This document shows, piece by piece, positions 2,081 to 61,399 of a stretch of 64,000 bases of DNA (position 1 is its first letter; each line of letters begins with the position of its first letter). The stretch spans positions 434,001 through 498,000 of the forward strand of contig CDROCS010002342.1 in assembly GCA_977020255.1 (NCBI GenBank), written 5' to 3'. Source of the stretch: Obrimoposthia wandeli. Lineage: Eukaryota. Below the pieces are notes generated by a model. It saw nothing but the letters and a program-made list of their open reading frames with translations, was not told where the DNA came from and did not search any database. The translations under genes and the position numbers were made by a program.

Positions 2081-2109
2081 AAATAATAATAAAAAGACAA
2101 CACAAGAAA

Positions 2110-4849: not shown

Positions 4850-5126
4850 GTATTTATTACTCGTTGATCCACTGCGGGCCCGTAGGGCACGCTTTGGCCA
4901 TTTTTTTGGCCTCTCAGGACCTTAATCAAAATTTTGGGAGCATTATGAGATTTTAAAATTTACAGGGTGTTAAATGGAGTTTTTTTTTTTTTTTTGAGTT
5001 TTTGAGATGGGGAGGGTAGAAAATTTTTCTACACACCTACACGAAATTTCACTCCACACACATGCACGGTTTTAAAGGACAGTAGGGGGGAGGGGGGTGT
5101 GGATTAGACCGGATTAGACCTCTAAT
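4850..5126. repeat. Maverick terminal inverted repeat, right-end orientation
   Basis: Shares GGCCTCTCAGG, GGGAGCA.TATGAGATTTT, AAATTTCACTCCACACACATGCAC.GTTTT.AAGGACAGT and GTGGATTAGACCGGA with 58500-58705. Confidence 0.75.
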
Positions 5127-5345: not shown

Positions 5346-6250
5346 TTATTTCTCTATCTGGTTCGCTTTTATCCATGTTTGTGTTTTATATCTGTGCCAT
5401 TTAACGATATTTTGATTATTTTTACCTCGACCTTTATATTTAATAATTTCTTGGATCCTATATACTTTTGGTTTATCAATAACTTGTAATTCCTGCTCAT
5501 AAAAATTTCCCTATATTGGACCTTTATCTTCATCTATGATATTATACATTACGGAGTTATTACGCAAATTGATTTTTGATATTTCAAATACTTCACAGAT
5601 GCAATTATTATCGAAACTTTTAATAAAATGTGTTGTACTTAGACATGATATGCAAACGAAATATCCGACTTTGTATTTGGGTTTCTTTATTATAGTTCGA
5701 TTATTGCGGTCAAACCAATCATTGAGTGAAATATCAATATATTTCTTACCGCCCAAACATCAATGTAGTAAGGGATTATATGAAATTATCAGTTTTGGTA
5801 GTACCTTTACCCATTTCTTTGATCCAATTGTGATTAAATTTTTCTTTACTTTATACCTCACTGTCCTATTAATTCGTTCAACCAAGGCTGCTTTAAAGTG
5901 TGAAAACAAAAGATTAGTGATTTAGTTCTAATTTATCAAAAGTGGTTTTAACATGTTTATTATAAAACTCTTTTCCAACATCTGTTTGTACTTTATCGGG
6001 TACAACATCAATCATATTTTTGATGGCAGCATCTAAATCTTTTTTTCCGATTTTGATTTTACGGCTTCGACACACGCAAATCTAGTAAATGCATCAATAT
6101 ATGATGAAATATATTTGTAACTGCATTAATACGCTCAAAAAGTATCATCTCGAACAAACCCATTTGTCACAAATTATTAGAGTTACTAGTCTTGTACGAT
6201 CCAGTCGGAAATCTTTTTCACATTAGTTTGTTGAGACTGTAGGCTAGGTG
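5346..6250 (-). pseudogene. Maverick retroviral-like integrase with C-terminal chromodomain, decayed
   Basis: IDAFTRFA, DKVQTDVGKEFYN, KKPKYKVG...GNFYEQEL, YRIQEIIKYKGRGKN...VKW; multiple stops and frameshifts. Confidence 0.85.
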
Positions 6251-6737
6251 ATTGCTTAACCATGCTTAAGTTTTCTTTTGACTCGACTTTGTGTTTGATG
6301 ATAGACCTCAAACGCCCATGTATCCTACTCAGTCTTTGGAATTGTACCATCTCGCTTCCATTGCAATCATTTATTTTAAAGTCAAAATTAAGCAAGTTGA
6401 TTCCCATACACTTTTTAAGCAACAGCTATAACAAGTAATGGACCGAATAGCGTTTAAACTTTCAAAGCCTCATCAACTATATTCCCTTAAATCTACTAAA
6501 ATAGCGTCATGACAAACTCCATCAAGCAGAAAGGAACAAGAGCATGGCATATGGATACTATAAAATTTGAAAGGCTTTCTTTATTGATTAATTTTTAATA
6601 AAATCCATATGGCACCTTTATTCTTACAATACTTTTATTTAATTTTATTAGGTTGGACCTTATAACTTACCATTGTTGAAAAATATGCCTATTCTGTGAT
6701 ATTATTTTATAGCTAATGTTTTGTATAAATGTATATA

Positions 6738-12100: not shown

Positions 12101-13550
12101 TTTATATCCAGGTAATTATAGGGAAGATGCTCTTGAATTGAGTTTAAAACAACTGTTCTTTCCAAATGTTTAAATACTTGAAAAAAGGAGCTGATTATAT
12201 GTGCAGAAAATCAAGAAATAAAAATGTAAATGTTGAAAATAAATTCGAGTTAACAAGTTTAAAATTTTCAACAATCCCTCATTATATTTGTATTTGCCAA
12301 TTTAATATATAATACGAAAAAACGTGCTTGCTTGATTATATAAGGTTTACTTATTTTGATTATAATGCGTGACAATTTTATTTTATTTTAATATATTTCA
12401 AATAATATTGACATATAATATTCATTGAAACAATATTCTGAAATAAAACCTTTTAATCAAATCCAATAAATTACTTTTTTAGGACTTACGAAAAATAACA
12501 TTTTTGACTTGAAGTTTTTCTAAATTACACAGTACAGTACATCACACATGCTTACCGTAGGCTCACCTGCCGCGATTCGACCATTTCAGTCATAGTAAAC
12601 GTTGAGGTCCGGGACTTTGGCTTCACATGGATTTTGTCAACCAACAGTGACTAGCGTGGCTCAACTCTGGCAGAGTCCGCGAGTGGTTTCCGTCTAGATG
12701 GAGGCGTGTGAGCGAGAGTGTGAAGTACCTCAAGATGCGCCGGCAGATTTCGGTTTTCTTATTTAGAGATGAGAATGGCATATCGTATGTGCATCGAGAG
12801 TCTGACCGGACCTGGCAGCTTCAGTAACGTAAAACTGGTGGCCAGGCAATAACATGGGATTGTTGCGAGGAGCATTCGATTTGCTAGCTGGTGACTGTGT
12901 GTGGTCCTGTATCAAGTGAGGTGCAGAGATCTGGCACCATCATCAATCTTGCAGTTACTTCGGTGCCAACATTAAGACTCTCTTATGTCTTTATTTTTCA
13001 CTCTTATATCATTCATTCTGTTGTATATTTCTTTATTATTGACTCTGCTAGCCCTAGGTCAACCTTTCGTGGTTTGCCGTATTTGAATGTTGTTTGCTTA
13101 AATATAGGCTTCGATTTTTATGAGTAAGTTTAGGTTCTCCGTTGATTTCCGCATCAATATTCATGAAATTGTCTTCTTTAATGATTCCAGGGCATCGTGA
13201 TTACCAGGCTCTGTCAATATCCCTAGTTCTACTGTTCTTAAATTTGTTATCGTTCTATTCCTTCTGAGCAATCAAAAGTACAAAAGCATTTCTAAATTTT
13301 TTATTCTTAATTTTTTATTTATGGAAAATATGTAAAACATAAATCGAAATTCTTAGTCTATAAATCAATAGCTGCCAATGTTTGAAAATTGGAACATTGA
13401 CTTCAAGTTAGATTTTTGTGATTAAAAAGTCATTTGAGCACCATAAAGTGCTACAAAATATTGCTGGGCGTATCAAAATGTAATGATGTTTTAATTATAA
13501 AAAATATTATATTTTACAAAGATTTATACACTTTTTTATTTAATAATATA

Positions 13551-13720
13551 CTGTGCATGTGTGTGGAGTGAAATTTCGTATATGTGTGTCTCCATTCCAC
13601 CCAAAGGTGAAGGGGGGTCACCCCAAACACATTTTTTTAAATTTTACTTCGAAAATTACCACGAATCTCGAAAGTGGTTAGAGAAGACCACGGGAATCCA
13701 TATTGGACCCGGTGATATTT
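13551..13720 (-). repeat. Truncated Maverick TIR fragment, left-end orientation
   Basis: ACTGTGCATGTGTGTGGAGTGAAATTTCG is the reverse complement of the motif at about 5041-5067 and 58640-58668. Confidence 0.7.
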
Positions 13721-19090: not shown

Positions 19091-19099
19091 AAAAATCAT

Positions 19100-19580
19100 A
19101 AGAAAAAATACCTGATGAAGCCGATTCAACTGTAGCTGGTTGGAAGTCTTCTTCATTGACAGTATCCATCCAGCTGTCGTCTGTTAACTCGACGAAATTG
19201 GATTCTTCAATGTCGTCCAACCAGCCGTTGTCGCTCCACTGAGACGGCTCCATCTCGAAATCTGACTGTGTGATATTTTCCATCCAGTGATTGTTCGAGA
19301 AATTGGTTGCTGTCGCCAAGTTATCAAAGTCTTCTTGGGCGATGACGTTTATTCACTCATTGTTAGTCAGTTGAGTGGATGAGACAGCTTCGGAATCGAG
19401 AGACGGGAAGGAAGGACCAACCTCATGACTGTAAACATTTTGAATGACTTCCGTTGCAACTGGAACAGGAACTGGAGCTGGAACGACAATCAAAGCACGC
19501 ACCAATTGAACGATATTCTTCTTGTTGTTGTCCGTGAAACAGGAGAAGTGAGCTCGATGTTCATTTTATGCACACATGTT
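19100..19580 (-). pseudogene. Diverged, truncated copy of gene 1
   Basis: EHRAHFSCF and repeats NNHWMENITQSDF, DNGWLDDIEESNF, DDSWMDTVNEEDF align to 252-827. Confidence 0.85.
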
Positions 19581-21725: not shown

Positions 21726-24434
21726 AGTAGGTAGAAGGATGGAGTCTAGATCACTTAACCCCCCCCCCTTGTGCGCACACAATGTTAAAGGATTTTACAA
21801 CATAGGGTGTCACACCATAAGGGTATATGTTGCCTCACCATAGTGATGTCACACCATAAAGGTATATGTTGACTCACCATAAGGGTGTCACACCAAAAGG
21901 GTGTCACACCATAAGGGTGTCTTGCCACACCATAAGGGTCTGGCTCAGAAAGGTTAAGATACGGGCGAGGGAGGGTGAAGGGTCAAGTGATCTAATATCC
22001 ACCCTTCTTTTGGTCAACCACTAAAGGGTTGTTGTCGTCCATAATTCAAAGGGTCAGACAGAGTTTTGACTTGAAGGTTTTAAGGTATGGTCATGACCGT
22101 CTATGGTTGGCCATCACATCTAAAGGATTGTGGTCGTCCATAGATCAAAGGTTGGGATCAGTTTTGACTTGAAGGTTTGAAGGTATAATTAAGGTCAACT
22201 ATGGTTGTCCATCATATCTAAAGGGTTGTGGTTGTCCATAAATCAAAGGGTCTCACTCAGTTTTGACTTGAAGGTTTGAAGGTTGATTAAGGTCAACTAT
22301 GGTTGGCCATCACATCTAAAGGGTCATGGACGTCCATAAATCAAAGGGTCGGGCTAAAAACAAAATCAAGTTTTAAATATCAAGGTTTTAGTACATGGTC
22401 GGAATCATCTTTAGAAGGCAAATTCCCCCATAAAGTATGGTCGTCCATAAATCAAAGGGTCGGGCTAAAGACAAAATCAAGTTTTAATTGTCAAGGTTTG
22501 AATACATGGTTGTAATCATCTTTAGAGGACGAATTCATCCATATAGGTATGGTCGGCCATAGATGAAGGGTTAAAAAAGTTGGAATTTCATAGTTTTAAG
22601 TACATGGTTGTATTCGTCAACATATTACGAGTTTAATCATGTAAAGATTTTATGGTCGTTCACAAGGTAAGGTTTAGATTTGGCATAATTTAAGGAATTA
22701 TATAGTAATTAATCAATTATTCTATGTGAAAGTTAAAGTCCACTCTTATCAGTTAAGGAATGTGGTACTTAATAACACACACACTATTATATGTAAAAAT
22801 GTAGGCTAAAGTTCACTCTTATCAGTTAAGGAATGTATTATGTAATAATACACACATTATTCTATGTGAAAATTTAGATCAAAGTTTTTTCCAAGCTTAT
22901 GCATCTAAAGAATTATGATACAATTTCTTTAAATAACTTAAATTATATATTAACATAAAAATAAAATAAGAAAGATCTTCTTTCCGATTCAACGACTAAG
23001 TTACAGCGGAATTAATAGAAGGAAAAAAACTCTAAGTTTGAGGCTATGAATGAAAATTAGTAAAATATTAATGTATTTGAATATATTTGAATGATAGTTT
23101 GAATAAATGAGAGTTAGATTGAATGTAAGTGAATACAAGTATGAATGCAAATGAATGCAAATACAAGTAAGAGTCTTAGCAAGTGAATGTAATTTTTAAA
23201 AATAAGAGTGTCGAGAGTATGATTAAATGTGAGTATAATTTAGACTATAAGTAAATTAAAATATGAGTTTTCGTAAGCAACTATAAGAAGCAGTGATACT
23301 GAGTTATGTTAAAAGTTAGAATGACTAAGTTACAGCAATATTAATAGAAAACAATACTATATTTTACGGTATAAGTGAAAATTAGTAAAATATTAATGTA
23401 TTTGGATGCTACTTAGAATGATTGTAAATAAATACAAGTATGAATGCAAGGGAATGCAAATACAAGTAAGAGTCTTACCAAGTTAATGTAATTTAAAAAT
23501 AAGAGTGTCGATAGTATGATTGAATGAAAGTGTTATTTAGACTATAAGTAAATTAAAATAGAGTTTTCGTATGAATAAAGTTTAGTTACAGTTACAGTTA
23601 GATTAATAACAAGTATGAAACTATAAGAAGCAGTGATACTGAATTATGTTAAAAGTTAGAATAACTAAGTTACAGCGAAATTAATAGAAAACAACACTAC
23701 GCTTTAAATTCAAAACCTCTTTTTTGGTAAAGGTTAATCAATCATTTAATAACATTCCTTAATTAATTATTTTTTTTTTAAAACTGATAAATTTTAATTT
23801 TTTATTTTTAAAGGACTTGGTTAAAGAAATGTTTATTTATATAATTTGAGTATTAACATTATTCGATTTAAACTTTAAATATTCGAAATTATCTTTAACA
23901 CATTAAAAAAACTTCAATTTTTTAAAATTTGTATCGAATATTGAAAATTCATTTGCAAACACATGTTATTCAAAGCTACTGAAAGCTTCGTCTATAAATT
24001 CGAATATCAAATCTTTAATTATATTGTTTTATATGCAAATAAATCAAATTATGTACATATTCGATTATCAACTTAGTATTTTTATTTATTATTCGACTTT
24101 CTAAAATAATTAAAATGTCTTGTAAGAACACATAAAATGAATTAAGGGTGTCACACCATAAGGGTATATGTTGCCTCACCATAGTGATGTCACACCATAA
24201 AGGTATATGTTGACTCACCATAAGGGTGTATTGCCACACCATAAGGGTCTGGATCAGAAAGGTTAAGATACGGGGGAGGGAGGGTGAATGGTCAAGTGAT
24301 CTAGTCTCCACCCTTCTTTTGGTCAACCACTAAAGGGTTGTGGTCGTCCAAAATTCAAAGGGTCAGGCAGAGTTTTGTGCACACAAAGGGGGGTGGGGGG
24401 GTTAAGTGATCTAGACTCCATCCTTCTACATACT
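21726..24434. mobile_element. Non-autonomous mini-Maverick A (2.7 kb, repeat-filled)
   Basis: About 50-bp TIRs AGTAGGTAGAAGGATGGAGTCTAGATCACTTAACCCC (right end reverse complement AGTATGTAG...); perfect 6-bp TSD AATGTC at 21720-21725 and 24435-24440. Confidence 0.9.
22010..23700. repeat. Tandem arrays inside mini-Maverick A: about 100 bp x3, 120 bp x2, 70 bp x2 and 330 bp x2
   Basis: GTCCATAAATCAAAGGGTC-type units at 22010-22620; GACTAAGTTACAGC-type anchors near 22995, 23323 and 23663. Confidence 0.8.
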
Positions 24435-27533: not shown

Positions 27534-29042
27534 AGTAGTATATAATGTCGGTATTAAACCAAAGGAACAAAGCCCACCCTGGGAAAGGATGATTGTTCCT
27601 TTGATTTAGTACCAACACTATAGTACCTAAAATGTCTATATATAGTTATTTTTCTGACAGAATGTCGTAAAAACGTCTAGAAATTGTTTAAATTGGCTTA
27701 AAATGACTAAAAATTACTCAAATTTCTATCAAGTCAGGTCTGGTGTTGTATGCAGGATTTTGAGACTTGACAAATCACACATACTAAGCCAATGGTAATA
27801 GGTCCCCTCCGTAATAGTAGTATTGAATATCTCCCATAACTATTGAATGTATATTAAATATTTTTAAAAATAAAAATCTTACGTTGATGATATTGGTAAA
27901 GTTATATAATCCCTTAAATTTACCTTTATAATTTATATTGATTATTTTCATTATGTGATAATAATTGATAATATCACAAACATATATAGTTTCATATTAT
28001 CCAATGATAATCAACCAATAAGATTCAAGTAGTCAACATTAACTATCAAAACATTTCAGTTTACTCTCATTCATCATGTTCAATTTACAAAAACCGATTT
28101 TGAAGAACACAAAGAAGAGGAAGAATGAAATTTTAAATACAAGCAAAGTTGTACAGATAGATTCTGATGATACAGAATTAGAGGATATTTTTAATGAAGA
28201 AACATAAGAACTATTCAAAGAATCTGTACTTCATTTCAGTTATACAATGAATTTTATCAAGATGCCTGTTATCTTTGGATTAAAATACCCTGATATGCTA
28301 ACAAAGTCCAAGTTTGACTATGTCAACTCAAGGATCCATCAAAATGATATTAATAATATAAATTATATTTTCAGAAGAATGAAATTAGATATCAAAATTG
28401 AAAACTTTAGTGCTTTTATTAAAGCTGATGAACATTTGTTTAAAGGAATATATACTTACTCTGAAGAAGAATTTCCAAAAAGCAAATATTGGATTTTAAT
28501 TTATTCAAATTCAAGGATTCAAAGTCGATAGACTCAGGAGACAGATGCCTATTTGGAGAAATTCTGAAGGACATAAGAAAGTTTAATGTAATTTATCATA
28601 TGAATAAATGATTTATTGATTTTATTTTAGTGATATTTATCATATGAATAAATAATTGATTTTGTTATTCTTTCAAAGTTAACTATAAAAAAGTAATATA
28701 AATATAAATTTTGTCAAAGGTGCTGCCCGGTCTTCGGATGATGGGCTCCCCTCTTAGGAGGCTCCGCAAGGGAGACTTAAGTCACTTAAAATCTACTTAA
28801 TCTACTTTTCTTTGGTAAGTTATATAGCGCCATATTTGAAAATGGTCTTGAAATCACGCATACAACATCAAATTGGTTTTGCAGTAAAAGTAACCCCCGG
28901 GGGGACCTGTTTGGGTGTCTAAACAAAATGACTATATATAGATATTTTAGGCATTTTAGTGTTGGTACTAAATCAAAGGAACAAGCTCTCTTCCCCGGGG
29001 GGGCTTTGTTCCTTTGGTTTAGTACCGACACTATATACTACT
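27534..29042. mobile_element. Non-autonomous mini-Maverick B (1.5 kb) with a cargo ORF
   Basis: AGTAGT...ACTACT termini, imperfect TIRs over 100 bp, perfect 6-bp TSD TATATC at 27528-27533 and 29043-29048. Confidence 0.92.
28076..28531 (+). pseudogene. Cargo ORF of mini-Maverick B (about 150 codons, one internal TAA), unknown function
   Basis: MFNLQKPILKNTKKRKNEILNTSKVVQIDSDDTELE...T*ELFK is in frame with the listed ORF 28247-28531; TAA at 28205. Confidence 0.55.
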
Positions 29043-43094: not shown

Positions 43095-43560
43095 TGTTAT
43101 TTGAAGTTAGACATTTATCTTTTAGCTGGTGTGTTTGAGTCCTTTCGTGTAAAATCTTTAGTAAAAGATGGGCTAGATCCCATGCATTTCTTTAGTTTAC
43201 CTGGTCTTTCATGGGCAAAGGCAATAAAAACTCTTAATATTAATATCGAGTTACTGCAAGATCCCGCGATGTATCAAATGTATGATTATGGTATACGCAG
43301 TGGAAGGAATTTTGTCAACAAACATCATGTTTTCAAAGATCAATCCACAGAGATTCTGTACATCGACATTAATAATTTGTATGGGTGGGCACTTACTCAA
43401 CCTCTACCTCATGTCAAGTTTAAGTGGGTTTATGATGAGGAAGAGTTGAATAAGTAGATGACAGATTTGGCTACTGTTGATACAGTTTCATCAAACGTCG
43501 GCTATTTGGTTGAGGTTGATTTAAAAATCCTTCCCAATGTTGAGGATAAATTGGATGATC
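43095..43560 (+). pseudogene. polB: Maverick protein-primed family B DNA polymerase fragment
   Basis: LLAGVFESFR, GLDPMHFFSLPGLSW, YGIRSG, YIDINNLYGWALTQPLP, GYLVEVDL. Confidence 0.88.
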
Positions 43561-43911
43561 TTCAAGGGGCACTTGTTCTATACAAATACCGATAACTTTC
43601 CCAATTTAGTTTGATTTTGAGGTATCCATATTATTCTCTAAAGTGGTACTCGCAGTCATCCTTAAAGCGTTGGTTATATTAAACTAGTACAAATATATAA
43701 CTGATTAATAGCATTTTAAAGATTGGCCTAATTTTTATCTTTATGTTTTTACCTGTTTTCTACTGCACTTTACTGTAAACGTCAACTTACCATTATTTAA
43801 TATTACACCTTTATCCAAAAATTTACTGAATTTTCTCATTATAAATTTACATAAATTCGCTTCACTCTCTATTTTATAATCTTTTGAAAACATTTTTAGT
43901 TCCAGTACATC

Positions 43912-44394
43912 TTAAGATCTAGCTTCAGCTAACAACAGTTTTGTTACTCTATCAGGAACATTTCTAACCGATTTAGTTGAGACAATATCTTGTTTCTTAT
44001 TACCTACTGTATGTTCGATATCAAAACCGAATTGAAGAGCTTCTTTATCAGATTCAAATGTAATTTGAATGACTTGAATAAATTTTAATCGATTTTTAAA
44101 TCTGACCTTTTTATTTTCATATAATATTGTCACTTCTTTATCTATACAATTGTAATATAATTTTCCTTTACTATCAAACCTGATCACAACTTTATTTAAT
44201 TTTTCATAATTAAATTCTTTGTAAACGAAATATATGAGTTTTTTCTTATTGTAATTGGAGAATAATAAAAAGAAAATTCTGCTAAAGCCGCTTCCCATCC
44301 TCCTTGGAGATTTATAGAATTTTCCCAATCGACAAAAAGCTACTAGCATCATTATCTGGCTGAGTCTTCGGTCATCCGTTACTAGGTAAAACAA
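43912..44394 (-). CDS. 160-aa ORF directly downstream of the Maverick integrase, unknown function
   Basis: Uninterrupted ORF, co-oriented with and abutting the integrase remnant. Confidence 0.45.
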   Translation of the reverse strand: MFYLVTDDRRLSQIMMLVAFCRLGKFYKSPRRMGSGFSRIFFLLFSNYNKKKLIYFVYKEFNYEKLNKVVIRFDSKGKLYYNCIDKEVTILYENKKVRFKNRLKFIQVIQITFESDKEALQFGFDIEHTVGNKKQDIVSTKSVRNVPDRVTKLLLAEARS

Positions 44395-44399
44395 TATAC

Positions 44400-45416
44400 A
44401 AAGATTTAATATTATATTATATGCTGATTTCCAAGTAGGATCTGAATAACCATACCATTTAACAAAGTATTGTTTATGTTTACTGGTACTCTTAGATTTT
44501 AATAATTTTTGAAAACCGAAAACGTTAGAATTATTTGATATTACTTGTAGTTCTTGCTCGTAAAATTTGCTCTGAATGATATTATTGTCATCATTTTTAA
44601 TAGTTTACATTATTGGATTACGCTTTAAATCAATTTTACTTATACAAAATATTTCATCACTCCAATTCCGATCAACATTTTTAATAAATAGAGTAGAGAT
44701 AATTTTAGAAATTTGACCATTTTGTGTTTCTTATATTTAGCTTTTTTATTATTTTTTATTATTCATGTCTATCCAAATATCCATATAGTTTTTATCAGTA
44801 ACATCAACAGGTCTCATTCTCTTGAGATTTCTATGTTCAGAGTGATTCTATGCATGTATTATTTTAGGCAAAACTTGAATCCTCTTTTTATTTCCTTCTT
44901 TTGTGAAATACTTTTTTATTCGATCTCTTAAAGTACGATTAAATCTTTCTACTACTGCTGCTTTGTACTGTGAAAACACCGAGTAGTGATTTATATTACT
45001 TTGTTTAAATAATGATTGAATTTGCTGATTATAAAATTCTTTTCCTAAATCAGTTTGCACATTTTGTGGAATGTCCTCTTTTAATATTTCTTTAATGGCT
45101 TCAAGCATAGCATTTGAAGACTTTGCTTTAACTGGAACTGAACGAGTAAAACTGCTAAAACATCAATACATTTTTAAATATATCTATATTCTTTATTAAT
45201 GAAAGAATATGGAATCATCTCCAAGAAATCCATTAACCATAAATTATTAGGACCGCTGGTTTTGTATGCTCTAGTTGGAAACCTTCTTCTAATAAGCTTG
45301 TTCAGACTAAAGGTTAACTGATTGCTCAGCCATTTCTGAGTTTTTCTGTAATTCTGTTTTGTTCTTTTTGCCAATTTTGAAACTTGGATCTTTGAATTAA
45401 ACCATATATTCTCCAT
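44400..45416 (-). pseudogene. Maverick integrase (near full length) with chromodomain remnant
   Basis: RRRFPTRAYKTSGPNNLW, NVQTDLGKEFYN, KAAVVERFNRTLR, NWSDEIF, KFYEQEL; stops and frameshifts present. Confidence 0.9.
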
Positions 45417-45819
45417 TACAACAATAGAATATATAGAAAATTTAAATTTACGTGAAGAAGGGTTAGCATCAATATCTTTAAGTGATTTTTGAAATAATTG
45501 TTTATGTACGTGTTACAGCTATAATACTACTAATAATTGAAGCAACAACTGGAATAATAGCCCCTATGAAACCCCCATTCTGTTAAAAACCATCACTATA
45601 ATGTTATTTATTTGCATTTGATTTCTAAATTCTCAAATAACATGTGATCTAACCAATATTTCAATATTATAGTATCTCATAGTATATATATATTTTAAAT
45701 TCTTATAAAATTTGTTAACTCTTAATTTGTCCAGAAAAACATTCATCAACAAGACGATCCACTTCATTGTCTGTATTTATAGTATTATTCATTGAAACAA
45801 CAGGTATAAACGGGTTTGT

Positions 45820-46311
45820 TTATAGAAAAATTAACAAAATGTAATAAAGTATATTTTCTAAAATCGATTCAACAGTGTATTGATAATCCAAATTTCTCAA
45901 TCCCAATATCATAACTTTACGACTTGAAAATATTTACACATAGCGGTGTAAACTTCAAATATCTGAGAACAGTAAATATTTCCAGTTCAAACATGCATTC
46001 TTATTTCATTTTCTCTGTAATTTTATAAAGATTTATTGCTTTCCCGAGATTAGCTGAAATTGTGCTTGATTGTATGGCGCTGATTTTAATTCCAAATTGT
46101 AAATTGAAATCATCCAAAAGTGTTTTGGATCCCTTAAACGACAAATTCCTAAAATAATTCAATATGAAAATAAAAACTACCCTGAGAAAAAAATAATAAA
46201 TGTGAAATCATCAAACCTTTTCACATATTTTCTCGGCTTCCAATCATTGAATGATAAGTGCAAAATATCATCTTCTATTATTCCTTTATAATTTATATTT
46301 ACGATTTTCAT
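45820..46311 (-). pseudogene. Second copy of the Maverick TBP-like gene
   Basis: MKIVNINYKG...IIFFSG|intron|ICRL...IQSSTISANLGKAINLYKI...ECMFELEIFTVLRYLKFTPLCVNIF-SSRKVMILGLRN, read across small frameshifts. Confidence 0.7.
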
Positions 46312-47161: not shown

Positions 47162-47437
47162 ATGGATCTTCTTCTGAGATATGTTGGAAATTTTTATTAT
47201 CCAGAAAGAATTACAAAAGGAAAACTATGTAATATATTAAAGAGACATCAAATTATACAAATTATGAATCCTGTGAAAATATCAAAAGTGGAAAATGAAT
47301 ATCTCATCGAAATTTTAACAACATCTGATATTGATCAATTGAAAAATATTTTGGGATTTTACATACCTGATTATGTATATGAAGTAAATTCTTTCCAGTT
47401 TGAAACTGATCCCAGTCTAGTTTTAAAGATGATCTAG
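47162..47437 (+). CDS. 91-aa ORF of unknown function, probably Maverick-derived
   Basis: Open ORF adjacent to the Maverick segment; no recognisable motif. Confidence 0.3.
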   Translation: MDLLLRYVGNFYYPERITKGKLCNILKRHQIIQIMNPVKISKVENEYLIEILTTSDIDQLKNILGFYIPDYVYEVNSFQFETDPSLVLKMI

Positions 47438-49783: not shown

Positions 49784-52700
49784 TGTTGAAGAATGTTAAT
49801 GGAATATAATTAAATGGAATTGAATGTTAATGGAATATAATTAAATACATTAAAATATTATTAGTAAAATAAATTAAATAGTGGGCAGTGAGATGGCGAT
49901 GATGGGGGGGTAGTGGAAATAGTGATGAAGGTCCTTATTTATAAAAGTTTTTAATATGAATTTACCAGGTGTTTTACCAAGGTGGTTGGTAACTTAAAAG
50001 TTAATGTTGTCAAGAATAAAGTTTGTATTTTAAAAAGTTTAAAGTAATTCAATAAAGAATTGAGTGATTTTGAATTTATGTTTTTATTTATGAAGTTATT
50101 CCCTGAAGTTATTTATGAAGTTATTCCCTCAAATATTTCGGTGCCTCAATCTTCCTCATCATCTTGACAATTTTTCAGTCACTATTTATCCTCTCAACCT
50201 TCAACTTGCAATTTTGTAACAATTGTAACAATGTTATCAGAAATCTCTACAACATCAAATGATGTTATTCTCTCAAACATGGTAGCAGAGAAGAAGAAGA
50301 TATGTATGTTAATGATGATGGAAGTAAATGGAAGTCACGAGGCTAACAAATTACAAGAAGTTCTCTACGGATTTATAAGTAAAAATTACGGAATTTTACG
50401 GATGAATAAAATGAATAATATGAATTATCAAGAACAATATGTATATGTACATGAAGATGATGAAAGTACTTTCTATATGGTCAATACCGTTAAAGATTAG
50501 AAATCAAGCTTTTTAAAGCAGAAGAACAGATTTGCTGCCAATAGAACCTGCAGAGAAAAGGATGGACCAAGAACCAGAAGATCTTTATATTTGTTAGAAC
50601 ATTTGCCTTCGATAATCCGAAACTATTCTTGAATGAAGACGAGGACAAATTAAACCTGGGTTCAGTGGGTTATCGATACCGAAAGTTTAACCGCAGTAAC
50701 GATACCAAATTGGTCGTGCGAGAGGATCAGAAGTTGGAGATAGAAGACAAAATGGACCCAGAAATGATCGGACAATCGGAGAAGGTGCCACAGCTGGAGC
50801 CCTTTGTCATGGACAAGTCGCTGCTGGATGTTGGGCTTTTTTTTGCTATTTAATTGCCCGCCCCTTGCTGTCGTTTCATTACCCGCTATTTTAAACTTAA
50901 ATTAAAAGTAAAAGAGTTCATAGTATTTGATTTTGTTTTGTTAGTAGTGGTTGATTCTTCAACTGTAATACATAGTAAGATGATGTTATATAGATATTAT
51001 AGTAAAATGATGAAATACATTGTAAGAGTAAAGTTAAACCGCAGGGAAAGTTTTAAGGGATGAATTGAGGGAGAATATGTGGAGAATTATAGAGGATGGC
51101 AAGCACCATCCGAGAAACTACCTCAGCCGGCATTGGCGGTGGCCTATAGACGAAGTCTGACGGAGGGATGCTTCGCAGTGTCGATTGAGGACGGGACAGC
51201 GTGCATCCAACCGCAAGGAAAGCATCAAAAGCAGAAGTGGTACATGAAAACAACCGCTATGACGTCAAGTTGCCATGGAACGAGAAAAAAACCGAATTGA
51301 GAATGAATAACCATGGTCGAAAGAAGGTTAAATAGTCTCATCAGAGAGTTGGATAAGGATCGATTATTAAAAAACGACTATTCAACAGTAATATAAACTT
51401 ATATGACTAAAGGATACATAAAAAAATTAACGCTAGATGAAGAGAAAGAAACAAAGTGGTTACTACCTCACTTCCCAGTTGTAAAAAGGGAAAAAGTTCA
51501 ATAAAAGTGAGATTAGTCTTTAACGCAGCGGGGAAAACGAATAATATGAGTCTAAATGAGGCAATCCATTGTGGTCCCAAGCTGCAAGGAGACCTTATAG
51601 CCATTCTTCAGCGATTCCGAAGGAATACAATATCGTTAGCGTGTGACATTTCAGAGATGTACTTACAGATCAAGACACGTAAGGAAGACCGGCCATAGCT
51701 AAGGTTCTTATGGAGAAATAGAGAGAACTAGAGGGAAATGTATGAATTTCAGAAAGTAGTCTTTGGAATAAATGCCTCGCCGTTCTTGGCTCAACTGGTA
51801 ATCAGAGTAAACGCATAAAACTTTAAAGTAAAGTATCCAAGAGCCAGTGAGACAATTTTGCAATCAACCTACATGGCCGATAGTCTAGATTCAGTATCTT
51901 CAGTAACCGAAGCAGATAAGCTAAAAGATCAGTTGGTGGAAATATGGGGGAATGCAGGGATGATTACAAGGAAGTGGATTAGCAATAGCCCAGAGGTTAA
52001 TGAAAAATACCCCTTGTAAGTGAGCTGAAGATGGATGAAGTGGAAGAAGGGATGCAGTGGTTGATAAAGCATGAACAAATCAGTACTTCTGCAAGGAATA
52101 CCAAAGGTTGAAAAAGAGGAAAGATATGGAGAGAACAAGCTCATTACTAAGGTTGAAACCGTGGGTGGATGAAAAAGGGATAATCAGAGCCAATACCCTA
52201 ATTAGATGACAATACCCTAATTACGCCTAATGTATTTTAACAGTAAATACATTAGGCGTACACTGCAATGCCAAATCTGACAATTTTTTCATAGTGACAA
52301 AATTTGACGAAGTCAACGACATAACCAAACGATCTTTCTTAAGTCTTTTATCAAAAGTGTTTGATCCATTAGGTTTTGTTAGCCTGATAGTCATCAGAGC
52401 CAAAATTATTATGCAGTAAGTCTGGCTTACAGGGTCGGATTGGGATCAAAAAGTAAATCAAGAATTAACTAAGATAAAAGTACAATGGATAGCGGATTGT
52501 AAGCAATTGAAATAGATCAAGATTCCGAGGTGGATGATAACGAGTGAGAAACAGCAAGAAATTCACGTTGATGGCAGCTAAAAGTAGATTTGCCCCAGTG
52601 AGAATAAAATGTGTACCCATATTAGAGCTGATAGCTGCAGGGATTGGAGTGAAGTTAGCACAAACGATATGGGATGCTTTAAATTTAATGGAGGTAAAAA

Positions 52701-55700
52701 CAACATTTTGGTCGGACAGCAAGAACGTATTATGGTGGATACACCAGCCAGGAATAGACTACAACCCGTTTGTAGCCAACCGAGTGTGGATGATCCAAGA
52801 AGATACTGATATAAATCTCTGAAGGTATGTGCCCACGAAGCTAAATCCAGCAGATATACTATCGCGGGGAGTCGATGTAAAGCTATTGATTGACGAGACA
52901 GATTTGGTGGGAAGGACCGGAGTACCTAAAGGAACAGAAAGAAAATTGGCCAGTTAATTTAGACTTAGAATAAATACAGTCAGATAAAGAGAAAAAGAGA
53001 CGGTACAAGGAAGTAACAATGTTCATACAGGAAGTAAACTGTTTCAAGATAGAGACTAATTCCGACTTGACGAGGTTGAAGACAGTCTTAGCTTGGATAC
53101 TACGATTTGCACGAAATATAAAGTAATCTCGAAATAGCAGACTTGTAGATGAGCTGAAGATTGATGAAGTGGAAGAAGAGATGCAGTGGTTGATAAAGCA
53201 TGAACAAAATCAGTACTTCTGCAAGTAATACCAAAGGTTGAAAAAGAGGAAAGATATGGAGAGAACAAGCTCATTACTAAGGTTGAAACCGTGGGTGGAT
53301 GAAAAAGGGATAATCAGAGCCAATACCCTAATTAGATGACAATACCCTAATTACGCCTAATGTATTTTAACAGTAAATACATTAGGCGTACACTGCAATG
53401 CCAAATCTGACAATTTTTTCATAGTGACAAAATTTGACGAAGTCAACGACATAACCAAACGATCTTTCTTAAGTCTTTTATCAAAAGTGTTTGATCCATT
53501 AGGTTTTGTTAGCCTGATAGTCATCAGAGCCAAAATTATTATGCAGTAAGTCTGGCTTACAGGGTCGGATTGGGATCAAAAAGTAAATCAAGAATTAACT
53601 AAGATAAAAGTACAATGGATAGCGGATTGTAAGCAATTGAAATAGATCAAGATTCCGAGGTGGATGATAACGAGTGAGAAACAGCAAGAAATTCACGTTG
53701 ATGGCAGCTAAAAGTAGATTTGCCCCAGTGAGAATAAAATGTGTACCCATATTAGAGCTGATAGCTGCAGGGATTGGAGTGAAGTTAGCACAAACGATAT
53801 GGGATGCTTTAAATTTAATGGAGGTAAAAACAACATTTTGGTCGGACAGCAAGAACGTATTATGGTGGATACACCAGCCAGGAATAGACTACAACCCGTT
53901 TGTAGCCAACCGAGTGTGGATGATCCAAGAAGATACTGATATAAATCTCTGGAGGTATGTGCCCACGAAGCTAAATCCAGCAGATATACTATCGCGGGGA
54001 GTCGATGTAAAGCTATTGATTGACGAGACAGATTTGGTGGGAAGGACCGGAGTACCTAAAGGAACAGAAAGAAAATTGGCCAGTTAATTTAGACTTAGAA
54101 TAAATACAGTCAGATAAAGAGAAAAAGAGACGGTACAAGGAAGTAACAATGTTCATACAGGAAGTAAACTGTTTCAAGATAGAGACTAATTCCGACTTGA
54201 CGAGGTTGAAGACAGTCTTAGCTTGGATACTACGATTTGCACGAAATATAAAGTAATCTCGAAATAGCAGACTTGTAGATGAGCTGAAGATTGATGAAGT
54301 GGAAGAAGAGATGCAGTGGTTGATAAAGCATGAACAAAATCAGTACTTCTGCAAGTAATACCAAAGGTTGATAAAGAGGAAAGATATTGAGAGAACAAGC
54401 TCATTACTAAGGTTGAAACCGTGGGTGGATGAAAAAGGGATAATCAGAGCCAATACCCGAATTATTAATGCAGAGTTTTTAGATAATGACACAAAATATC
54501 CCATAGTGTTATCGGAAAAGAGTTGGCTGACTAGATTAATCATAAAGGATACACACGAGAGGTTACGACATTACGCCGGGGTACAGCATATACTAAATGA
54601 GAGCCAAAATAAATATTGGATTCCTAAAGTACGAAGAGTAATCAAATAAATAGAGCAATAATGCTTCGACTGCAATAAAAGTAAAGCCGTAGGGATGGTC
54701 GAAGAGATATCACCCTTGCCGGGATTCAGATTTGAACAACTGTTAAGGGTCTTTTCAAACGTTGGAGTGGACTTTGCAGGATCATTCATTACAAAACAAG
54801 GACGGGAAGAGTGAGGACTAAGAGATACCTTTGCCTTTTTACATGCCTGCAAACGCGGGCCATTCATTTAGAGATGGCTTATGGTTTGGATGTCGATAGG
54901 TTTATTAGGGCATTAAAAAGATTTATAGAAAGAAGAGGAAGACCACGAATGAAAATATCGGATAATGGCACAAATTTTGTGGGGGCGTTGAATGAAGTGA
55001 GCGAATTGGTACGGGATGGTTATCGGATTCAAAAGGAGTTAGTAAAGGAGGAGATACGTTGGGTCTTCAACCCACCACATGTACCACATTTTAGAGGGGT
55101 CTTTGAGATCATGATAAAATGTGCCAAAAATGCTATATACCGGATTCTAAGAGGAGCCGAAGTGACTGACGAATAATTACAATTAGAATTCATCGAAGCT
55201 GAAAGCCTTGTAAATTCTAGATCCATTGGAGTTAAGAGCATGGATGCAAAGGAAAATGAGGCGCTTTCACCTAACCATTTTTCAATAAATCAGGCGTATG
55301 CTGAGACAAAGTTTGGGAGCGATGAAATGAAGTCGAAGCACAGATGGAAATTTGTCCAAATGTTAACCAGTATGCTATGGAAGCGATGGATGGAGGAGAT
55401 TGTACCCATGTGGGCACCGAGACAAAAGTGGCATGAGGCACGCACACCGTTACTGATCGACGACATCGTGTGGATAATAGAGAAGCAAATGAAGAGAGGT
55501 TAATGGAAATTAGGTAGAGAGGAAAAATTAGAGACCGGAGAGGATGGGAAGGTGAGAGTAGCAAAGATTATAGTGGGAAATAAGTTAATAGTTAGTGCGC
55601 TTCATAGCGTGTGTAGATTATATTGGGTCCTTAGAGCTGTTTTATAATTTACTCGTTGTTATAATTATGTCAATGCTGAATAATGAAAGTAAGTATGTGA

Positions 55701-56277
55701 TTGTGTGATAATGATGAGTAAAGAGTATGAGGAATAATATAAAATTAAATAGAATATAATAGTCATAGATTGATCATGTCTGATCAAATGGGGGAGAATG
55801 TTGAAGAATGTTAATGGAAAAGAATTAAATGGAATTGAATGTTAATGGAATATAATTAAATACCTTAAAATATTATTAGTAAAATAAATTAAATAGTGGG
55901 CAGTGAGATGGCGATGATGGGGGGGGGGTAGTGGAAATAGTGATGAAGGTCCTTTTTTATAAAAGTTTTTAATATGAATTTATCAGGTGTTTTACCAAGG
56001 TGGTTGGTAACTTAAAAGTTAATGTTGTCAAGAATAAAGTTTGTATTTTAAAGATTTAAAGTAATTCAATAAAGAATTGAGTGATTTTGAATTTATATTT
56101 TTATTTATGAAGTTATTCCCTGAAGTTGTTTATGAAGTTATTCCCTCAAATATTCCGGTGCCTCAATCTTCCTCATCATCTCAACAATTTTTTAGTCACT
56201 ATTTATTCTCTCAACCTTCAACTTGCCATTTTGTAACAATTGTAACAATGTATCAAATGATGTTATTCCCTCAAACA
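49784..56277 (+). mobile_element. BEL/Pao LTR retrotransposon, decayed, with an internal tandem duplication
   Basis: LTRs 49784-50279 and 55799-56277 (TG...CA); 5-bp TSD TGTGC; PBS TGGTAGCAGAG (matches the initiator tRNA-Met 3' end); PPT GGGGGAGAA; motifs LPHFPV, VFDPLG, AAKSRFAP, GVDFAG, ISDNGTNF. Confidence 0.95.
52014..54458 (+). repeat. 1130-bp-period tandem duplication (about 2.2 units) inside Pao pol
   Basis: ORF pairs 52465/53595, 52544/53674 and 53056/54186 are offset by exactly 1130 bp; copies are nearly identical. Confidence 0.92.
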
Positions 56278-58428
56278 TGTGCCAATTTATGGTCTTGTTT
56301 TTACAAAAGTCTTTAACAAAAATAGTACTTCATGTCCTTGACTTTAAAATCATGTGCACTATAATAAAATATGACTTTCATTGATGAACTTCCAAAAGCA
56401 GGCGCAAGCAACCGAAATTTGATGCATTCTAACAAAAGTCAGGCCAAAACTAAGACCTTATAACCATATACACTATAACTTCAAATAATTTTGACCTATA
56501 TGGTGAAAAACGTTTCACAAAAATTGAAACAGATTCTTTGTTCTCAAGTCATTACATGCAACTACTTTAATTAAAATAAGAACAAATGGCGATAAAAATA
56601 TCTAAATCAAAAAAGTAAACCGTATTTTTGTGGTATATAGATATAGCCATTAACAGTAATAAAGTGTAGTAATATTGAAGAATTTGCTGTTTAGAAAAGA
56701 CTACAGTTATCTACGCAAAGTTACTTATTTGTATAAAGCCTTTGAATAAAAATTTATACCATAATAAAGAAATTGTTCTATTTAACGTAACTATCTATAG
56801 CGAAAATGATTTAATGACAACAGACTGATTCAAAAATTAATTAAGTAAATATTTTCGTTAAAAATTTTATTTAAAACTAAAATAAATGAAACTGAAAAAA
56901 TTGTCTTAACCCATTTTCAAATTTATCTGTCGATTAGTGAAATATTTTAATCAAATTCCCAGATAGATTAAAATTAAGAACAACAATCAATTAAAATTAA
57001 ATTACCTTTTTTACTTAATGTAGAAATTTATGGTAAATTTATAATTAATTTGTCTTTGATGATTACCTTTTAATATGCATCGTTACATGCGGTTTTAGCT
57101 TAATTAAATTTAGCTTAATTAATTTTTTATTAGCATCAATGCCAATTAGAAATACCCTGGTTTGCATTTTAGCTTTTAAAATGGAATTTACTTTGATTTT
57201 GCTGACGAACAAAAATTCTATTGAACTACCGATCGCTACAAATTGTTAGAATATACGAATATGGGTAACTAAATTCATTTGGAAATCAAAATCCTGAAAA
57301 TTTGTAGGTTAATTTGCCAAAAATTCAAAATTTTCTTTCAACTCGGATTTTCTAGGGAACGTCTGAAAATATCAGATTTATTTATTTTTGTTGGAAGATA
57401 ACTGATACTGTTCGTTGGAATTCGACACTGAAAACGTATGCAATGTTTACAGAGAACGCTAATTTGTATCGAAACCAAAATTGATATTTGGATACACTGT
57501 CCAATCTTGATTGGTAATCTGAAGCACACACATTTCTCTATATTTGCTAAATCGACAAACGATTCTTGGCCATTCATTAAAATGCTTCTTACACAATATT
57601 TCAGCTTCAGTCCGAATTTAAGTTTATTCCACTTCAAATTTCCGGTTATTTTGCATCCTGAGAGGTGGATAACGGAAAATGAGTATAGAATCAAGCTGAT
57701 CATAGATTCCCATTGTCTCGATTGACAAAAGTGTCTGTGAACTTTATATTTTATGTTTTTCATTTTCTACTAGATAGTTGAATATGATTTCTTTGAGATA
57801 TTTAAACAGTCCAATGCAGGAATAAGTTTTCAATGAAATATTTCATATTGTACAATTGAATGATGTGAATTTGCTCATGCTTTTTTAATTTTGACTTTTT
57901 ATTCTATTTTTAGATACGATAAATAATCACTAGGGCGGTTATTTTATGACCTAAAAATTCAGAAAATATGACTGACTTTACCTAAATTTATATAATATCA
58001 TTGAATTAATGCTTACTTTTGGAATTTAAAACTTTAAAATTTATTTGGATAATGAAAAAAGAATAATTACAAAAATTATAAATCTTTGATTATAAATTAA
58101 TTTTTTTATTATAAATTCTAATCCTTTTATTGTAAATTGTAATAAAAAAAGATGAAAATAATAATTTTTTTATGTATTTAAAAAATAAGGCTTTTATGAC
58201 TTTTACATAAAAATTATAACTTTTTATGATATTTATCATAAAAGCCGCCCTACTAATCACACAACATATCAAAGAAGAGGCCATCTGTCTCGGTATGAAT
58301 GGGACTGTACCGATATATAAATACATGTCTCACGTTCCGATCGTCCAGGTAATTATCCTGAGATGTTTTATTTCCCTAGATTGAAGTATAGCTCACCGTT
58401 CCAGTGTTGCTATTCTACATCCGTTGTA

Positions 58429-58717
58429 AGTAGGTGGATGTGTCCGGTCTAATCCACCCCGTGTATATATGTATTGCTCGTCAGGCCACCGCGTGCCCAA
58501 AGGACACACGTTGGCCCTTAGATGGCCTCTCAGGCACTTCCTCACTCTGAGGGAGCACTATGAGATTTTCAATTTTAGAGGGTGTTATATGGGGTTAATT
58601 AGTTTTTAGGGTGTTGGGTGGGGGGCTAGAAAATTTCACTCCACACACATGCACAGTTTTGAAGGACAGTGGTAGCCTCCCGGGGAGGGTGGATTAGACC
58701 GGACACATCCACTTATT
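58429..58717. mobile_element. 289-bp MITE-sized mini-Maverick C
   Basis: 31-bp TIR AGTAGGTGGATGTGTCCGGTCTAATCCACCC with 2 mismatches at the right end; perfect 6-bp TSD GTTGTA at 58423-58428 and 58718-58723; interior homologous to 4860-5115. Confidence 0.88.
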
Positions 58718-61399
58718 GTTGTAATTTTACCGCAAAAATACTCAAAATAACACATCTGATTACACATTATGACGAAACTATTTTTTCCTTACAGGGATTT
58801 CGAAAAATTCGAAACACTTGACATTCGAACGGAGAATCACCAGTTGGGATGCATTGTGAAATAAAACCTAGAAAACGACCTTAAATCAGTGTATCTATTT
58901 TTTCACTTCAAACCAGATTTGTCCCTATACGAGGATATCAGAATCTGGTCACCCAGTATTAAAGACGCACCAAACATATTTTTACGGGATTTCTGAGAAT
59001 AAAACTGGAGTACAAGCTAATTGGGGTACCTGTTTATAATCACAGTATCTATAAATCATGTTTCTTTGATAAAAAATCTTCTTAAAAAGTGTTTATAATT
59101 TTGCACTTTTTATGAATAAAGATACCATTTTTACAAAACGTCAAAATTAACTACATGTTACTCAAAGGTGCATCAAAATTTCATGCAGGAACTCTTTCAA
59201 TTTTCTTTATAAAGCTACTGAAACCCTTTGTAATATGTCCTTCAGTATTGTTTAACACATGTTTATATGCTGACAATTAAGGATAAAAATGGTATATTTT
59301 TATTTTAACTTTTAAATGTTGTCAAATCACCTATGAAAAGAGATGCTTTTCTGAATAATTAAGTGAATTTTAAATTCAACTCTAGCTCTTATTGGAAGCC
59401 AAAGTATGATTATAATTTCTTAAAAGAATAATGTAAAGGAAAAACGAATTAAGATATCGAGCTATTTGAAATTCCCTAGAAACTTTATTGCAACTATTAT
59501 ATAATATGCATATTTTATGTACAAAATCCGGTTACGTTAAATTTACATTTTTAAAATGGAAAAAATAAATTTCTAAGGAACCGAAATACAATTTAAATCG
59601 CAACAACAAAAACAGATTGTAAAATAACAAACATTACAACAATTAATTAGCTCTATTATGAAGTAAAAGCATCTAGCAATTATTTAATGATTACATTTAC
59701 ATAATTGTTTGTGTAATTCGATTTGCTAGATACTCCAACAATTTCCTTTAGCGTCTTAACATTTCCAGACGCGCAGACACAGCAAGCATGGCGAACAGCG
59801 GGAAGAAACTAAAGTGACTGTCAGAAATCATTTGACAGTGACACTGTTTATGTTTATTGTACCAAACTTTAACTAAATTGTCAACGCGAAATTCATTAGA
59901 ATATGTTAGTACACTAACGAATTCTCAGTTGTTGTTAAGATAGTAAACGTGTCAATAATTACTGATAATTCCCGGAAAGTGAAAAATACGCTTTAATAAA
60001 ACAGATTAATTCAAATTAACGTTAAATTCATTCAAATTAATTCATCCTAACCCAAATTCTACACTGATTTCAAAAATGCTTACAAAATTTTTATTTGAAA
60101 TCATAAAACTAATTAGAGTGATTTTATTCATTAATTCAAATCCATTTCATTAAAATAAATACAAATAAGATAATTAAAACAATAATTTCAAATTACTTTC
60201 ATTTCATCAATTTAATTAATCCAGTTACACATTTCAAAACGGAAATTCAAATCTATTTTCAAATAATTTATTAAAGTTGTAGAAGACAAGTTTGAACTTT
60301 CCTCACCGAAATTTTGTTCAGAATTGAAATTTAAAATCAAAAACCCGCTTAAGAAATTTTATTTAAAGCAATTTGAGTATAAAATTGTCAATTAATTAAA
60401 TGAATGTTGCCATGTCTTGGGATATCTGCTTGCACCGATATGTAAACCGGCATTATCGGGCCACCAATCCCACCAGCTTCATTTAAGTTTCCACATTGAT
60501 TTTGTTTACAAACATTATAATAACTCAAAATGAATGTAAAAATGCTATGTTCAAATATGTCTAAAACACAATTAAAATTTTTGTTGTAAATTCGAAATAT
60601 TTACTTGTTAAAACGCAAATTCAATTTCATTACACATAGTGGTATTTTGAAAATAATGTTTGAAATCAGATTGGTAATTAATTATTAAACCTTACAGATG
60701 GATTAATTGTTTTTCTTATGTGATATATTTGCAAACCAACATTTTTTACTATTATTGCATAAAGATTTTATTGAAATATTTCTCTTATTAAATCCAAATT
60801 TTTCTTTTGAAAGATAACATCAATTGAAATTTGGGTGTTGATACATACTAAAATGAATTGTTTAACAAATTTTATTGCAGTATTTACACCTATTTGTTGA
60901 ATAAGTACAACTACAGTGACATCCCGATCATAACAAGACCAGCTAGCAATTGTTACAAGTGGATATAAAAACTAACTGCATAACATATATTACACAATAC
61001 AAATACAATATTTAAAGCACTAAAATATCCAAAATAATAACTAAAATAACACGAATATATTTACTACTGTTTCCTAATTAACCATTCGTTAGAAATAAAC
61101 GATAGTATCATGCAATGTCGTTCCCCGACACTGATAATATTACTAGTGTTGATAGGATTGATTGATGTATGGCTAATTAGAAAATTAATTCGACTTATAA
61201 AAATGACATATAAGGATTCATGTATATGAAAATGAAGAGATCAAATTGACATACGAAGGAAGTACTTGCATATCTTTTAGGATAGAGGATAACATAGTTA
61301 ATGAAGCGATTTATTACACGTGAAACCATCAACTAGATCCATTTTGCATGGACTACGAAGTTAACCGACAACGCACACTATAGAATATCAGAAACGTTT

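What the first reader, a model, noticed from the sequence alone, without database searches (positions are those of the whole stretch)
58423..58723. 289-bp MITE-like satellite with Maverick-type ends and TSD
Seen: AGTAG-type 31-bp TIRs, a perfect 6-bp TSD (GTTGTA), no coding capacity, and an interior that is essentially one copy of the TIR region at 4860-5115. Established: AG(TAG) termini with 6-bp TSDs are the Maverick integrase signature; non-autonomous Polintons are known but are usually kilobases long. Inference: this defines the minimal cis-sequence for Maverick integration and possibly replication.
Basis: partly seen in the sequence, partly recalled or inferred. Interest (0 to 1): 0.7.

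Follow-up and report, generated by a model that had tools for sequence, protein, structure and literature searches.

The report
Miniature transposon with Maverick-type ends
A real 289-base, gene-less jumping element whose ends and insertion scar look like those of the virus-like Maverick transposons; its ends belong to a very abundant repeat family in this animal genome, but this exact short form is rare, so it does not yet prove how little DNA a Maverick needs to move.

Summary
The element is real: 58429-58717 (289 bp), 31-bp inverted ends (29/31), perfect 6-bp duplication GTTGTA, no coding capacity. The match to 4851-5113 is only 68%, and that stretch is not shown to be a Maverick end. Contigs of one sample show that the end is a large family: depth steps up at 58429 from about 50 to 5 million, and 260 contigs in three listed rows run into unrelated flanks. 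So 'single copy' is refuted for the family. But this copy's own left junction has at most 26-44 times single-copy depth, and related contigs carry other DNA there. It is a rare deletion or copy-back variant that may have shrunk after insertion. Maverick drive is likely (AGTAG ends plus 6-bp duplication in three elements of the window; three decayed Maverick integrases nearby), but no gene-carrying element with this end was seen. 'Minimal cis-sequence' is not shown. One joint hints at a roughly 107-bp form in about 50 copies. The scan noted kilobase-size non-autonomous Mavericks in other genomes before, none this short.

The parts
58423..58428 (.). Left target-site duplication GTTGTA
58429..58459 (+). 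Left inverted end, 31 bp, starts AGTAGG; holds the motif ACACAT(C/G)CAC on the minus strand; the family's most abundant part
   Evidence: depth step at 58429 in 3 of 3 runs
58460..58461 (.). Junction between the left end and the interior: the probable deletion or template-switch point, rare among family members
   Evidence: depth without the right-end letter is 26x (X1) and 44x (X2) single copy; three other contigs align only from 58462 inward (records 4-6)
58460..58686 (+). Interior: the subterminal region of one end only; 68% like 4851-5113; no ORF
58631..58657 (+). 27-bp subterminal box with a second copy of the end's ACACAT(C/G)CAC motif; often tandem in other copies; candidate protein-binding site (inference)
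   Evidence: identical at 13550-13576 (minus strand); tandem at 5023-5070; depth as high as the end itself; loose ends and go-back joints at 58631
58687..58717 (-). Right inverted end, 29/31 to the left arm; its two differences make it unique to this copy
   Evidence: single-copy contig 58688-59250, depth 48, no differences (record 8)
58718..58723 (.). Right target-site duplication GTTGTA
4851..5113 (+). Related subterminal region on a longer element; outer 14 bp and duplication missing, a 10-bp tandem repeat at the break; runs leftward into AGGTCA repeats and intron-bearing ORFs
13550..13589 (-). Isolated copy of the box, no end next to it
21726..24434 (.). Second gene-less element of the same build but another family: 2709 bp, AGTAGG end, arms about 57-62 bp, duplication AATGTC
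27534..29042 (.). Third such element: 1509 bp, (AGT)2 at both ends, arms about 119 bp, duplication TATATC
43095..46192 (.). Decayed Maverick core: protein-primed polymerase piece (43095-43562, +), integrase with chromodomain (44383-45383, -), TBP-like piece (45847-46192, -)
   Evidence: Pfam; tblastn with Maverick loci L047 and L056
17333..19100 (+). Second Maverick remnant: TBP-like piece, packaging ATPase (17927-18241), start of the integrase
5355..6361 (-). Third decayed Maverick integrase

Best explanation
One aged copy of an abundant family of gene-less elements with Maverick/Polinton-type ends, inserted by a Maverick integrase supplied in trans. Shown: the boundaries, the 6-bp duplication, the lack of genes, and that this end is attached to many unrelated flanks. 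Shown in outline: the 289-bp form is the outer 31 bp of one end joined to 258 bp of the other end, that is, a longer family member with its middle removed. Inferred: the middle was lost either by template switching (copy-back or deletion) during protein-primed strand-displacement copying, which gives a small panhandle molecule that the integrase then inserted with a 6-bp stagger, or by a deletion in the chromosome after insertion. I put the two at about even odds. Inferred: the ACACAT(C/G)CAC motif in the end and in the box is a binding site for element or host proteins. The copy is diverged and probably no longer mobile.
For: Boundaries and chance tests. All three TIR-plus-6-bp elements found in the window start AGTAG, one with full (AGT)2 at both ends; the joint chance of three such duplications is about 1.5e-6 even with 17 offsets each. 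(AGT)2 or (AG)3 ends with 6-bp duplications are the Maverick signature (PMC8097293, passages; PMC6839031, passages). The window holds three Maverick integrase remnants, with polymerase and ATPase pieces. Contig depth is about 50 in the flanks and up to 5.1 million at the end; 260 (X1) and 167 (X2) contigs in three listed rows each leave the end into unrelated AT-rich DNA, agreement 0.39-0.43. The single strand folds into a panhandle with a 26-bp perfect stem. A possible 4-bp ACCC microhomology lies at the junction (weak).
Against: No element with Maverick core genes and this end was seen: the three remnants show no matching terminus, and 1-5113 holds no core gene. The end reads AGTAGG, 5 of 6 of the published motif. 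No 6-bp duplication could be read at any other site of this family. All three runs are one sample, possibly the source of the window, so they are not independent. Summed contig depth is not a copy number and can be inflated up to about 31-fold. The end pattern was not found in IMG/VR, JGI or GTDB contigs.
Confidence: 0.7

Rival explanations
1. History of this copy only: a kilobase-size Maverick-type element inserted here and later lost its middle in place. The 289-bp form never moved and says nothing about minimal cis needs. This is compatible with the family being Maverick-driven.
For: Junction-specific depth is at most 26-44 times single copy, about one copy after the overlap correction. Three other single- or half-depth contigs align from 58462 inward and carry other DNA outside it (records 4-6). 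The relative at 4851-5113 is the end of a much longer element. The copy is old: at all 14 listed variant positions inside it most of the X1 depth has another letter. Fragmented Mavericks of 0.6-4.5 kb are known (PMC8504770, passages).
Against: Short-form joints from the left end into the box occur (58448 to 58631 in one contig per run, at 53x and 55x single-copy depth), so junctions of this kind can be amplified. The window's two sister elements are also gene-less and short, each with an intact duplication.
Confidence: 0.45
2. An ordinary MITE of another cut-and-paste superfamily that makes 6-bp duplications (IS3EU/GingerRoot, Ginger2, a 6-bp hAT group, or an unassigned one). The AG start would be coincidence.
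For: Short 31-bp arms, subterminal repeats and very high abundance are typical of MITEs. Mavericks are usually low-copy (median 8 per vertebrate genome, TIRs 46-1447 bp; PMC8097293). Unassigned short TIR families with 6-bp duplications are reported in C. elegans (PMC2817418, passage).
Against: IS3EU/GingerRoot end TA..TA and Ginger elements TG..CA. The TA..TA reading (58431-58715) has no duplication, and no offset gives TG..CA. Three unrelated families in 64 kb share AGTAG plus 6 bp, next to Maverick remnants. The 6-bp hAT group is recalled, not from a call.
Confidence: 0.15
3. Chance or assembly artefact.
For: None found.
Against: Both junctions are bridged by contigs with no differences at single-copy depth (58109-58453, depth 50.8; 58688-59250, depth 48.1). 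Chance tests.
Confidence: 0.01

Closest known systems
Maverick/Polinton elements of animals (PMC8097293; passages read)
   Same: AG-starting inverted ends, 6-bp duplication, decayed Maverick genes in the same window.
   Different: 289 bp against 12.7-24.6 kb; no genes; arm 31 bp, below the 46-1447 bp range reported; AGTAGG instead of (AGT)2; ends at hundreds to thousands of sites against a median of 8 copies.
Non-autonomous Polintons (kilobase-size Repbase families, recalled; polB-less mobile polintons in insects, bioRxiv 10.1101/2025.02.07.637071, passages; Tlr1, PMC5499653, passages)
   Same: Ends kept, core genes missing, mobility in trans inferred.
   Different: Those are kilobases long and mostly still carry genes; this one is MITE-sized and almost wholly made of one end.
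MITEs of cut-and-paste DNA transposons
   Same: Size, short arms, no ORF, repeated subterminal motif, high abundance.
   Different: The end and duplication signature points to a Maverick integrase, not to a known cut-and-paste transposase.
IS3EU/GingerRoot (PMC10045372, PMC6839031; passages)
   Same: 6-bp duplication, integrase-like enzyme.
   Different: They end TA..TA; that reading gives no duplication here.
Copy-back (panhandle) defective genomes of viruses (recalled)
   Same: All sequence can come from one end plus a short inverted copy of that end.
   Different: An analogy only: an internal deletion of an element with long arms gives the same structure, and no replication was observed.

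Membership tests
Maverick/Polinton (non-autonomous) | 6-bp target-site duplication | tested here: met
   GTTGTA on both sides, only at this offset of 17; seen at this one site of the family only
Maverick/Polinton (non-autonomous) | Ends 5'-AG...CT-3'; (AGT)2 or (AG)3 motif | tested here: inconclusive
   Left arm AGTAGG (5 of 6); right arm differs at positions 2 and 5; the sister element at 27534-29042 has full (AGT)2
Maverick/Polinton (non-autonomous) | Terminal inverted repeats | tested here: met
   31 bp, 29/31; shorter than the 46-bp minimum in intact vertebrate elements
Maverick/Polinton (non-autonomous) | Ends shared with a gene-carrying Maverick of the same genome | tested here: inconclusive
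   No matching end on the three remnants in the window; no genome held
Maverick/Polinton (non-autonomous) | A Maverick integrase and polymerase exist in the genome | tested here: met
   Decayed copies only; an intact helper was not seen
Maverick/Polinton (autonomous) | Encodes pPolB, integrase, ATPase, capsid proteins; 12-25 kb | tested here: not met
   289 bp, longest ATG frame 46 codons
MITE | Short, non-coding, inverted ends, duplication | tested here: met
MITE | Many dispersed copies of the same short structure | tested here: inconclusive
   The ends are abundant and dispersed, but the 289-bp junction is rare; element lengths cannot be read from fragmented contigs
MITE | Empty sites or insertion polymorphism | not testable with these tools
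   One sample only; no clean empty-site joint among the 15 of 109 joints shown; both junction contigs are at full single-copy depth, so the insertion looks homozygous
IS3EU/GingerRoot | TA..TA ends with 6-bp duplication | tested here: not met
   Offset +2 gives TA..TA but no duplication (definition)
Ginger1/Ginger2, solo LTR | TG..CA ends | tested here: not met
   No offset gives TG at both arms

The most novel reading that the evidence does not exclude
Maverick enzymes drove a true MITE burst in this animal: thousands of dispersed elements of about 100-300 bp, some born as copy-back molecules from one end, each inserted with its own 6-bp duplication. The roughly 107-bp form (left arm cut to 20 bp, joined straight to the box), seen as one contig at about 50 times single-copy depth, would then bound the DNA needed for Maverick insertion, and perhaps copying, at 20-31 terminal bases plus a box. 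It would also show that insertion needs neither virus-size DNA nor packaging.
Probability: 0.35. Interest if true: 0.75.

Novelty: new variant of a known kind. Interest (0 to 1): 0.5.

Why it matters
Maverick movement has been inferred from sequence, and the signals that its integrase and protein-primed polymerase read are not mapped. Mavericks are described as 15-25 kb and low-copy. A family of 100-300 bp passengers with hundreds to thousands of independent insertions would be a natural deletion series of those signals and a large sample of target sites. It would also suggest that some unclassified short repeats with 6-bp duplications in animal repeat libraries are Maverick passengers. If this copy only shrank in place, it is an ordinary fossil within an abundant non-autonomous family.

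Tried and rejected
No whole genome is held, so copies with their own duplications could not be listed. The 24-nt core of the end: 0 hits in IMG/VR, JGI metagenomes and GTDB; the 19-nt start: 0 in IMG/VR; the 18-nt box: 1 hit in a 57% GC contig with no further likeness, taken as chance. The element has no DNA match to 126 fetched loci; 1 of these 126 had a TIR with a 6-bp duplication, not AG-ended. Rfam: 0 matches in the window. The frame 43915-44604 found no relatives in three searches; the frame 44851-45162 found 4159; 2 of the 10 clusters looked up carried names, neither useful. The flanks hit no Pfam family in 12 of 12 frames and have no second copy in the window. One contig joins 58395 to 58835 with unknown DNA between: a related flank without the element, but not a clean empty site. 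I tested whether the box at 13550 is the end of the remnant at 16563-19100, colinear with 46955-48700: no colinear match. Atlas searches of two ORFs in 1-4271 scored under 0.9, leads only. An unseeded scan for TIR plus 6 bp gave 5 hits: two of the three elements and three palindromic hexamers inside long inverted repeats, which I discarded; it missed the 1509-bp element, which the AG-seeded scan found. Ten paper searches found no description of a sub-kilobase Maverick MITE family. The library lacks Kapitonov and Jurka 2006 and the review with DOI 10.1266/ggs.18-00024, and Repbase and Dfam were not searchable, so this is weak evidence of novelty. Supplementary table 2 of PMC2817418 (short families with 6-bp duplications) was not read and may bear on novelty.

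Full report
Observation. The element runs from 58429 to 58717 (289 bp) between two copies of GTTGTA (58423-58428 and 58718-58723). Its arms match at 29 of 31 positions; the right arm differs from the left at positions 2 and 5. The 31-mer has 2 matches in the window and none in 100 shuffles. Of 17 boundary offsets only this one gives a 6-bp duplication. Two random 6-mers of the window agree with P = 6.7e-4. The longest ATG frame is 46 codons. That stretch lacks the outer 14 bp and any duplication, and ends in a 10-bp tandem repeat.

Surroundings. The window is 31% GC repeat debris, most likely from an animal: a BEL/Pao retrotransposon at about 49784-56279, a Tc5/pogo-type transposase piece, a reverse transcriptase piece. 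It holds three Maverick remnants. These are an integrase at 5355-6361; a TBP-like piece, an ATPase and an integrase start at 17333-19100; and polymerase, integrase-chromodomain and TBP-like pieces at 43095-46192. I placed them by tblastn with ORFs of 126 fetched loci; the best query, L047, carries an A32-type ATPase, an integrase and downstream ORFs that I read as capsid genes from recall. Two more gene-less elements of the same build lie at 21726-24434 (2709 bp, AATGTC) and 27534-29042 (1509 bp, TATATC, full (AGT)2 ends). They show no significant DNA match to the 289-bp element. So three separate families in 64 kb carry AGTAG ends and 6-bp duplications; the joint chance of the three duplications is about 1.5e-6.

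Copy evidence. No genome is held. Three public runs hold the stretch, all of one sample, which may be the source of the window. Their contigs were laid on 57900-59250 at 80% likeness. In X1, contigs identical to the flanks have depth 48-51, and two of them bridge the left and right junctions without a difference. The insertion is therefore real and looks homozygous. Over the element the summed depth rises to 5.1 million at the end and 5.1 million at the box. The share of the boundary bin at that level puts the family's first base at 58429 within half a base in 3 of 3 runs. Three listed rows (58425, 58427, 58429) hold 260 contigs in X1 and 167 in X2 that leave the end into unrelated DNA (agreement 0.39-0.43, median 255 letters); 18 of 1088 such rows were shown. 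The ratio to single-copy depth is about 1e5. Overlapping short contigs can inflate this up to about 31-fold, which leaves 3,300-4,300 ends. The tool warns that this is no copy number, so I read it as hundreds by direct count and probably thousands. Whether those ends belong to short or long elements cannot be read from the contigs.

This copy within the family. Depth at the first interior base, after removing the right-end letter, is only 26 times (X1) and 44 times (X2) single copy, about one copy at the full correction. Three other contigs align from 58462 inward and carry other DNA outside it (records 4-6; 24 of 35,009 pieces shown). At all 14 listed variant positions inside the element most of the X1 depth has another letter (40 of 148 rows shown). 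So the copy is old and its left junction is rare. Its build is 31 bp of one end plus 258 bp of the other. Among the 15 of 109 joints shown, five go from the left arm straight into the box at 58630-58631. One (58448 to 58631) is a single contig in each run, at 53 and 55 times single-copy depth in X1 and X2. If it continues to a normal right end, it is an element of about 107 bp in about 50 copies. Its short side is only 22 letters, which the tool flags as unreliable, so it is a lead. No clean empty-site joint was among those shown.

How it most likely works. Shown: boundaries, duplication, no genes, dispersed ends. From the literature: Mavericks integrate with a retrovirus-like integrase that leaves 6 bp, and their repeated end motif is expected to serve jump-back priming (PMC8097293, passages). 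Inferred: this family is moved in trans by such an integrase. The short form arose either during strand-displacement copying, by copy-back or deletion, and was then inserted as a small panhandle molecule (the single strand folds with a 26-bp perfect stem), or by deletion in place. The intact duplication does not separate the two. A possible ACCC microhomology at the junction fits both. The motif ACACAT(C/G)CAC occurs 5 times in the window, all in this family's ends and boxes, and is the best candidate binding site.

Comparison. It works like a MITE driven by a Maverick. Membership is likely but not shown: the duplication and the AG start are met, the (AGT)2 motif is met 5 of 6, and a gene-carrying element with the same end was not seen. 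IS3EU/GingerRoot (TA..TA) and Ginger (TG..CA) fail on their ends (PMC10045372 and PMC6839031, passages; the two papers disagree on the Ginger2 duplication length). Papers seen as passages only: PMC8097293; PMC3014272 (few anole Polintons, no non-autonomous copies); PMC6431247 (15-25 kb); PMC8504770 (408 fragments, median 1243 bp); PMC5499653; PMC2817418; PMC5753468; PMC10294476; bioRxiv 10.1101/2025.02.07.637071, 10.1101/2024.01.15.575659 and 10.1101/2022.07.12.499685. Kilobase-size non-autonomous Polintons in Repbase and a 6-bp hAT group are recalled, from no call. Earlier notes of this scan describe 4-16 kb non-autonomous Maverick-ended families in other genomes (unchecked), none this short among the 16 listed.

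Verdict. A real element, new variant of a known kind. Maverick-driven family about 0.7-0.8; this 289-bp form itself mobile about 0.5; a true burst of 100-300 bp Maverick passengers about 0.35. Interest 0.5.

Noticed in passing
window 21726-24434 and 27534-29042: Two more gene-less AGTAG-ended elements with perfect 6-bp duplications (2.7 and 1.5 kb; longest ATG frames 75 and 94 codons). The 1.5-kb one has an internal inverted copy of its own end (28957-29033 is self-inverted); the 2.7-kb one has an internal direct copy of its end and 98- and 111-bp tandem repeats.
   Followed up: partly
window 4599-4722: 10 of the window's 27 AGGTCA hexamers (both strands) lie in about 125 bp just inside the related end. 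AGGTCA is the nuclear-receptor half-site (recalled); possible hormone control of the element.
   Followed up: no
window 1-4271: GC-richer ORFs on the minus strand broken by short AT-rich, intron-like gaps, including a RING-like gene (255-950). A 78% copy of 263-720 directly abuts the truncated Maverick integrase at 19103. Possibly intron-bearing accessory genes of a Maverick-type element; no core gene in this stretch.
   Followed up: partly
window 17333-17545 and 45847-46192; L047 382-726: TBP-like gene carried by the Maverick remnants and by locus L047 (Pfam TBP E = 3.7e-12 for L047).
   Followed up: partly
window 4878-4888: GC-stem hairpin with a GNA three-base loop in the related end, the only one of its kind in the window scan; the aligned place in the 289-bp element (58490-58510) is a weakened hairpin.
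   Followed up: no
window 16563-19096 and 45178-46955: Two Maverick remnants, 81-86% alike, lie inverted to each other 26-29 kb apart.
   Followed up: partly
window 49784-56279: BEL/Pao LTR retrotransposon with about 500-bp LTRs (92% alike) and a 99% identical 1130-bp internal tandem repeat (52013-54464); recent duplication or assembly effect.
   Followed up: no
window 13550-13760: Exact 27-bp box copy with no end beside it, followed by a short GC-rich stretch unlike the other family members: perhaps another subfamily.
   Followed up: partly
L017 11312-15578: 4.3-kb stretch with inverted ends and a 6-bp duplication (TTCAAA) around an integrase-like match in an IMG/VR contig; ends do not start AG.
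   Followed up: no
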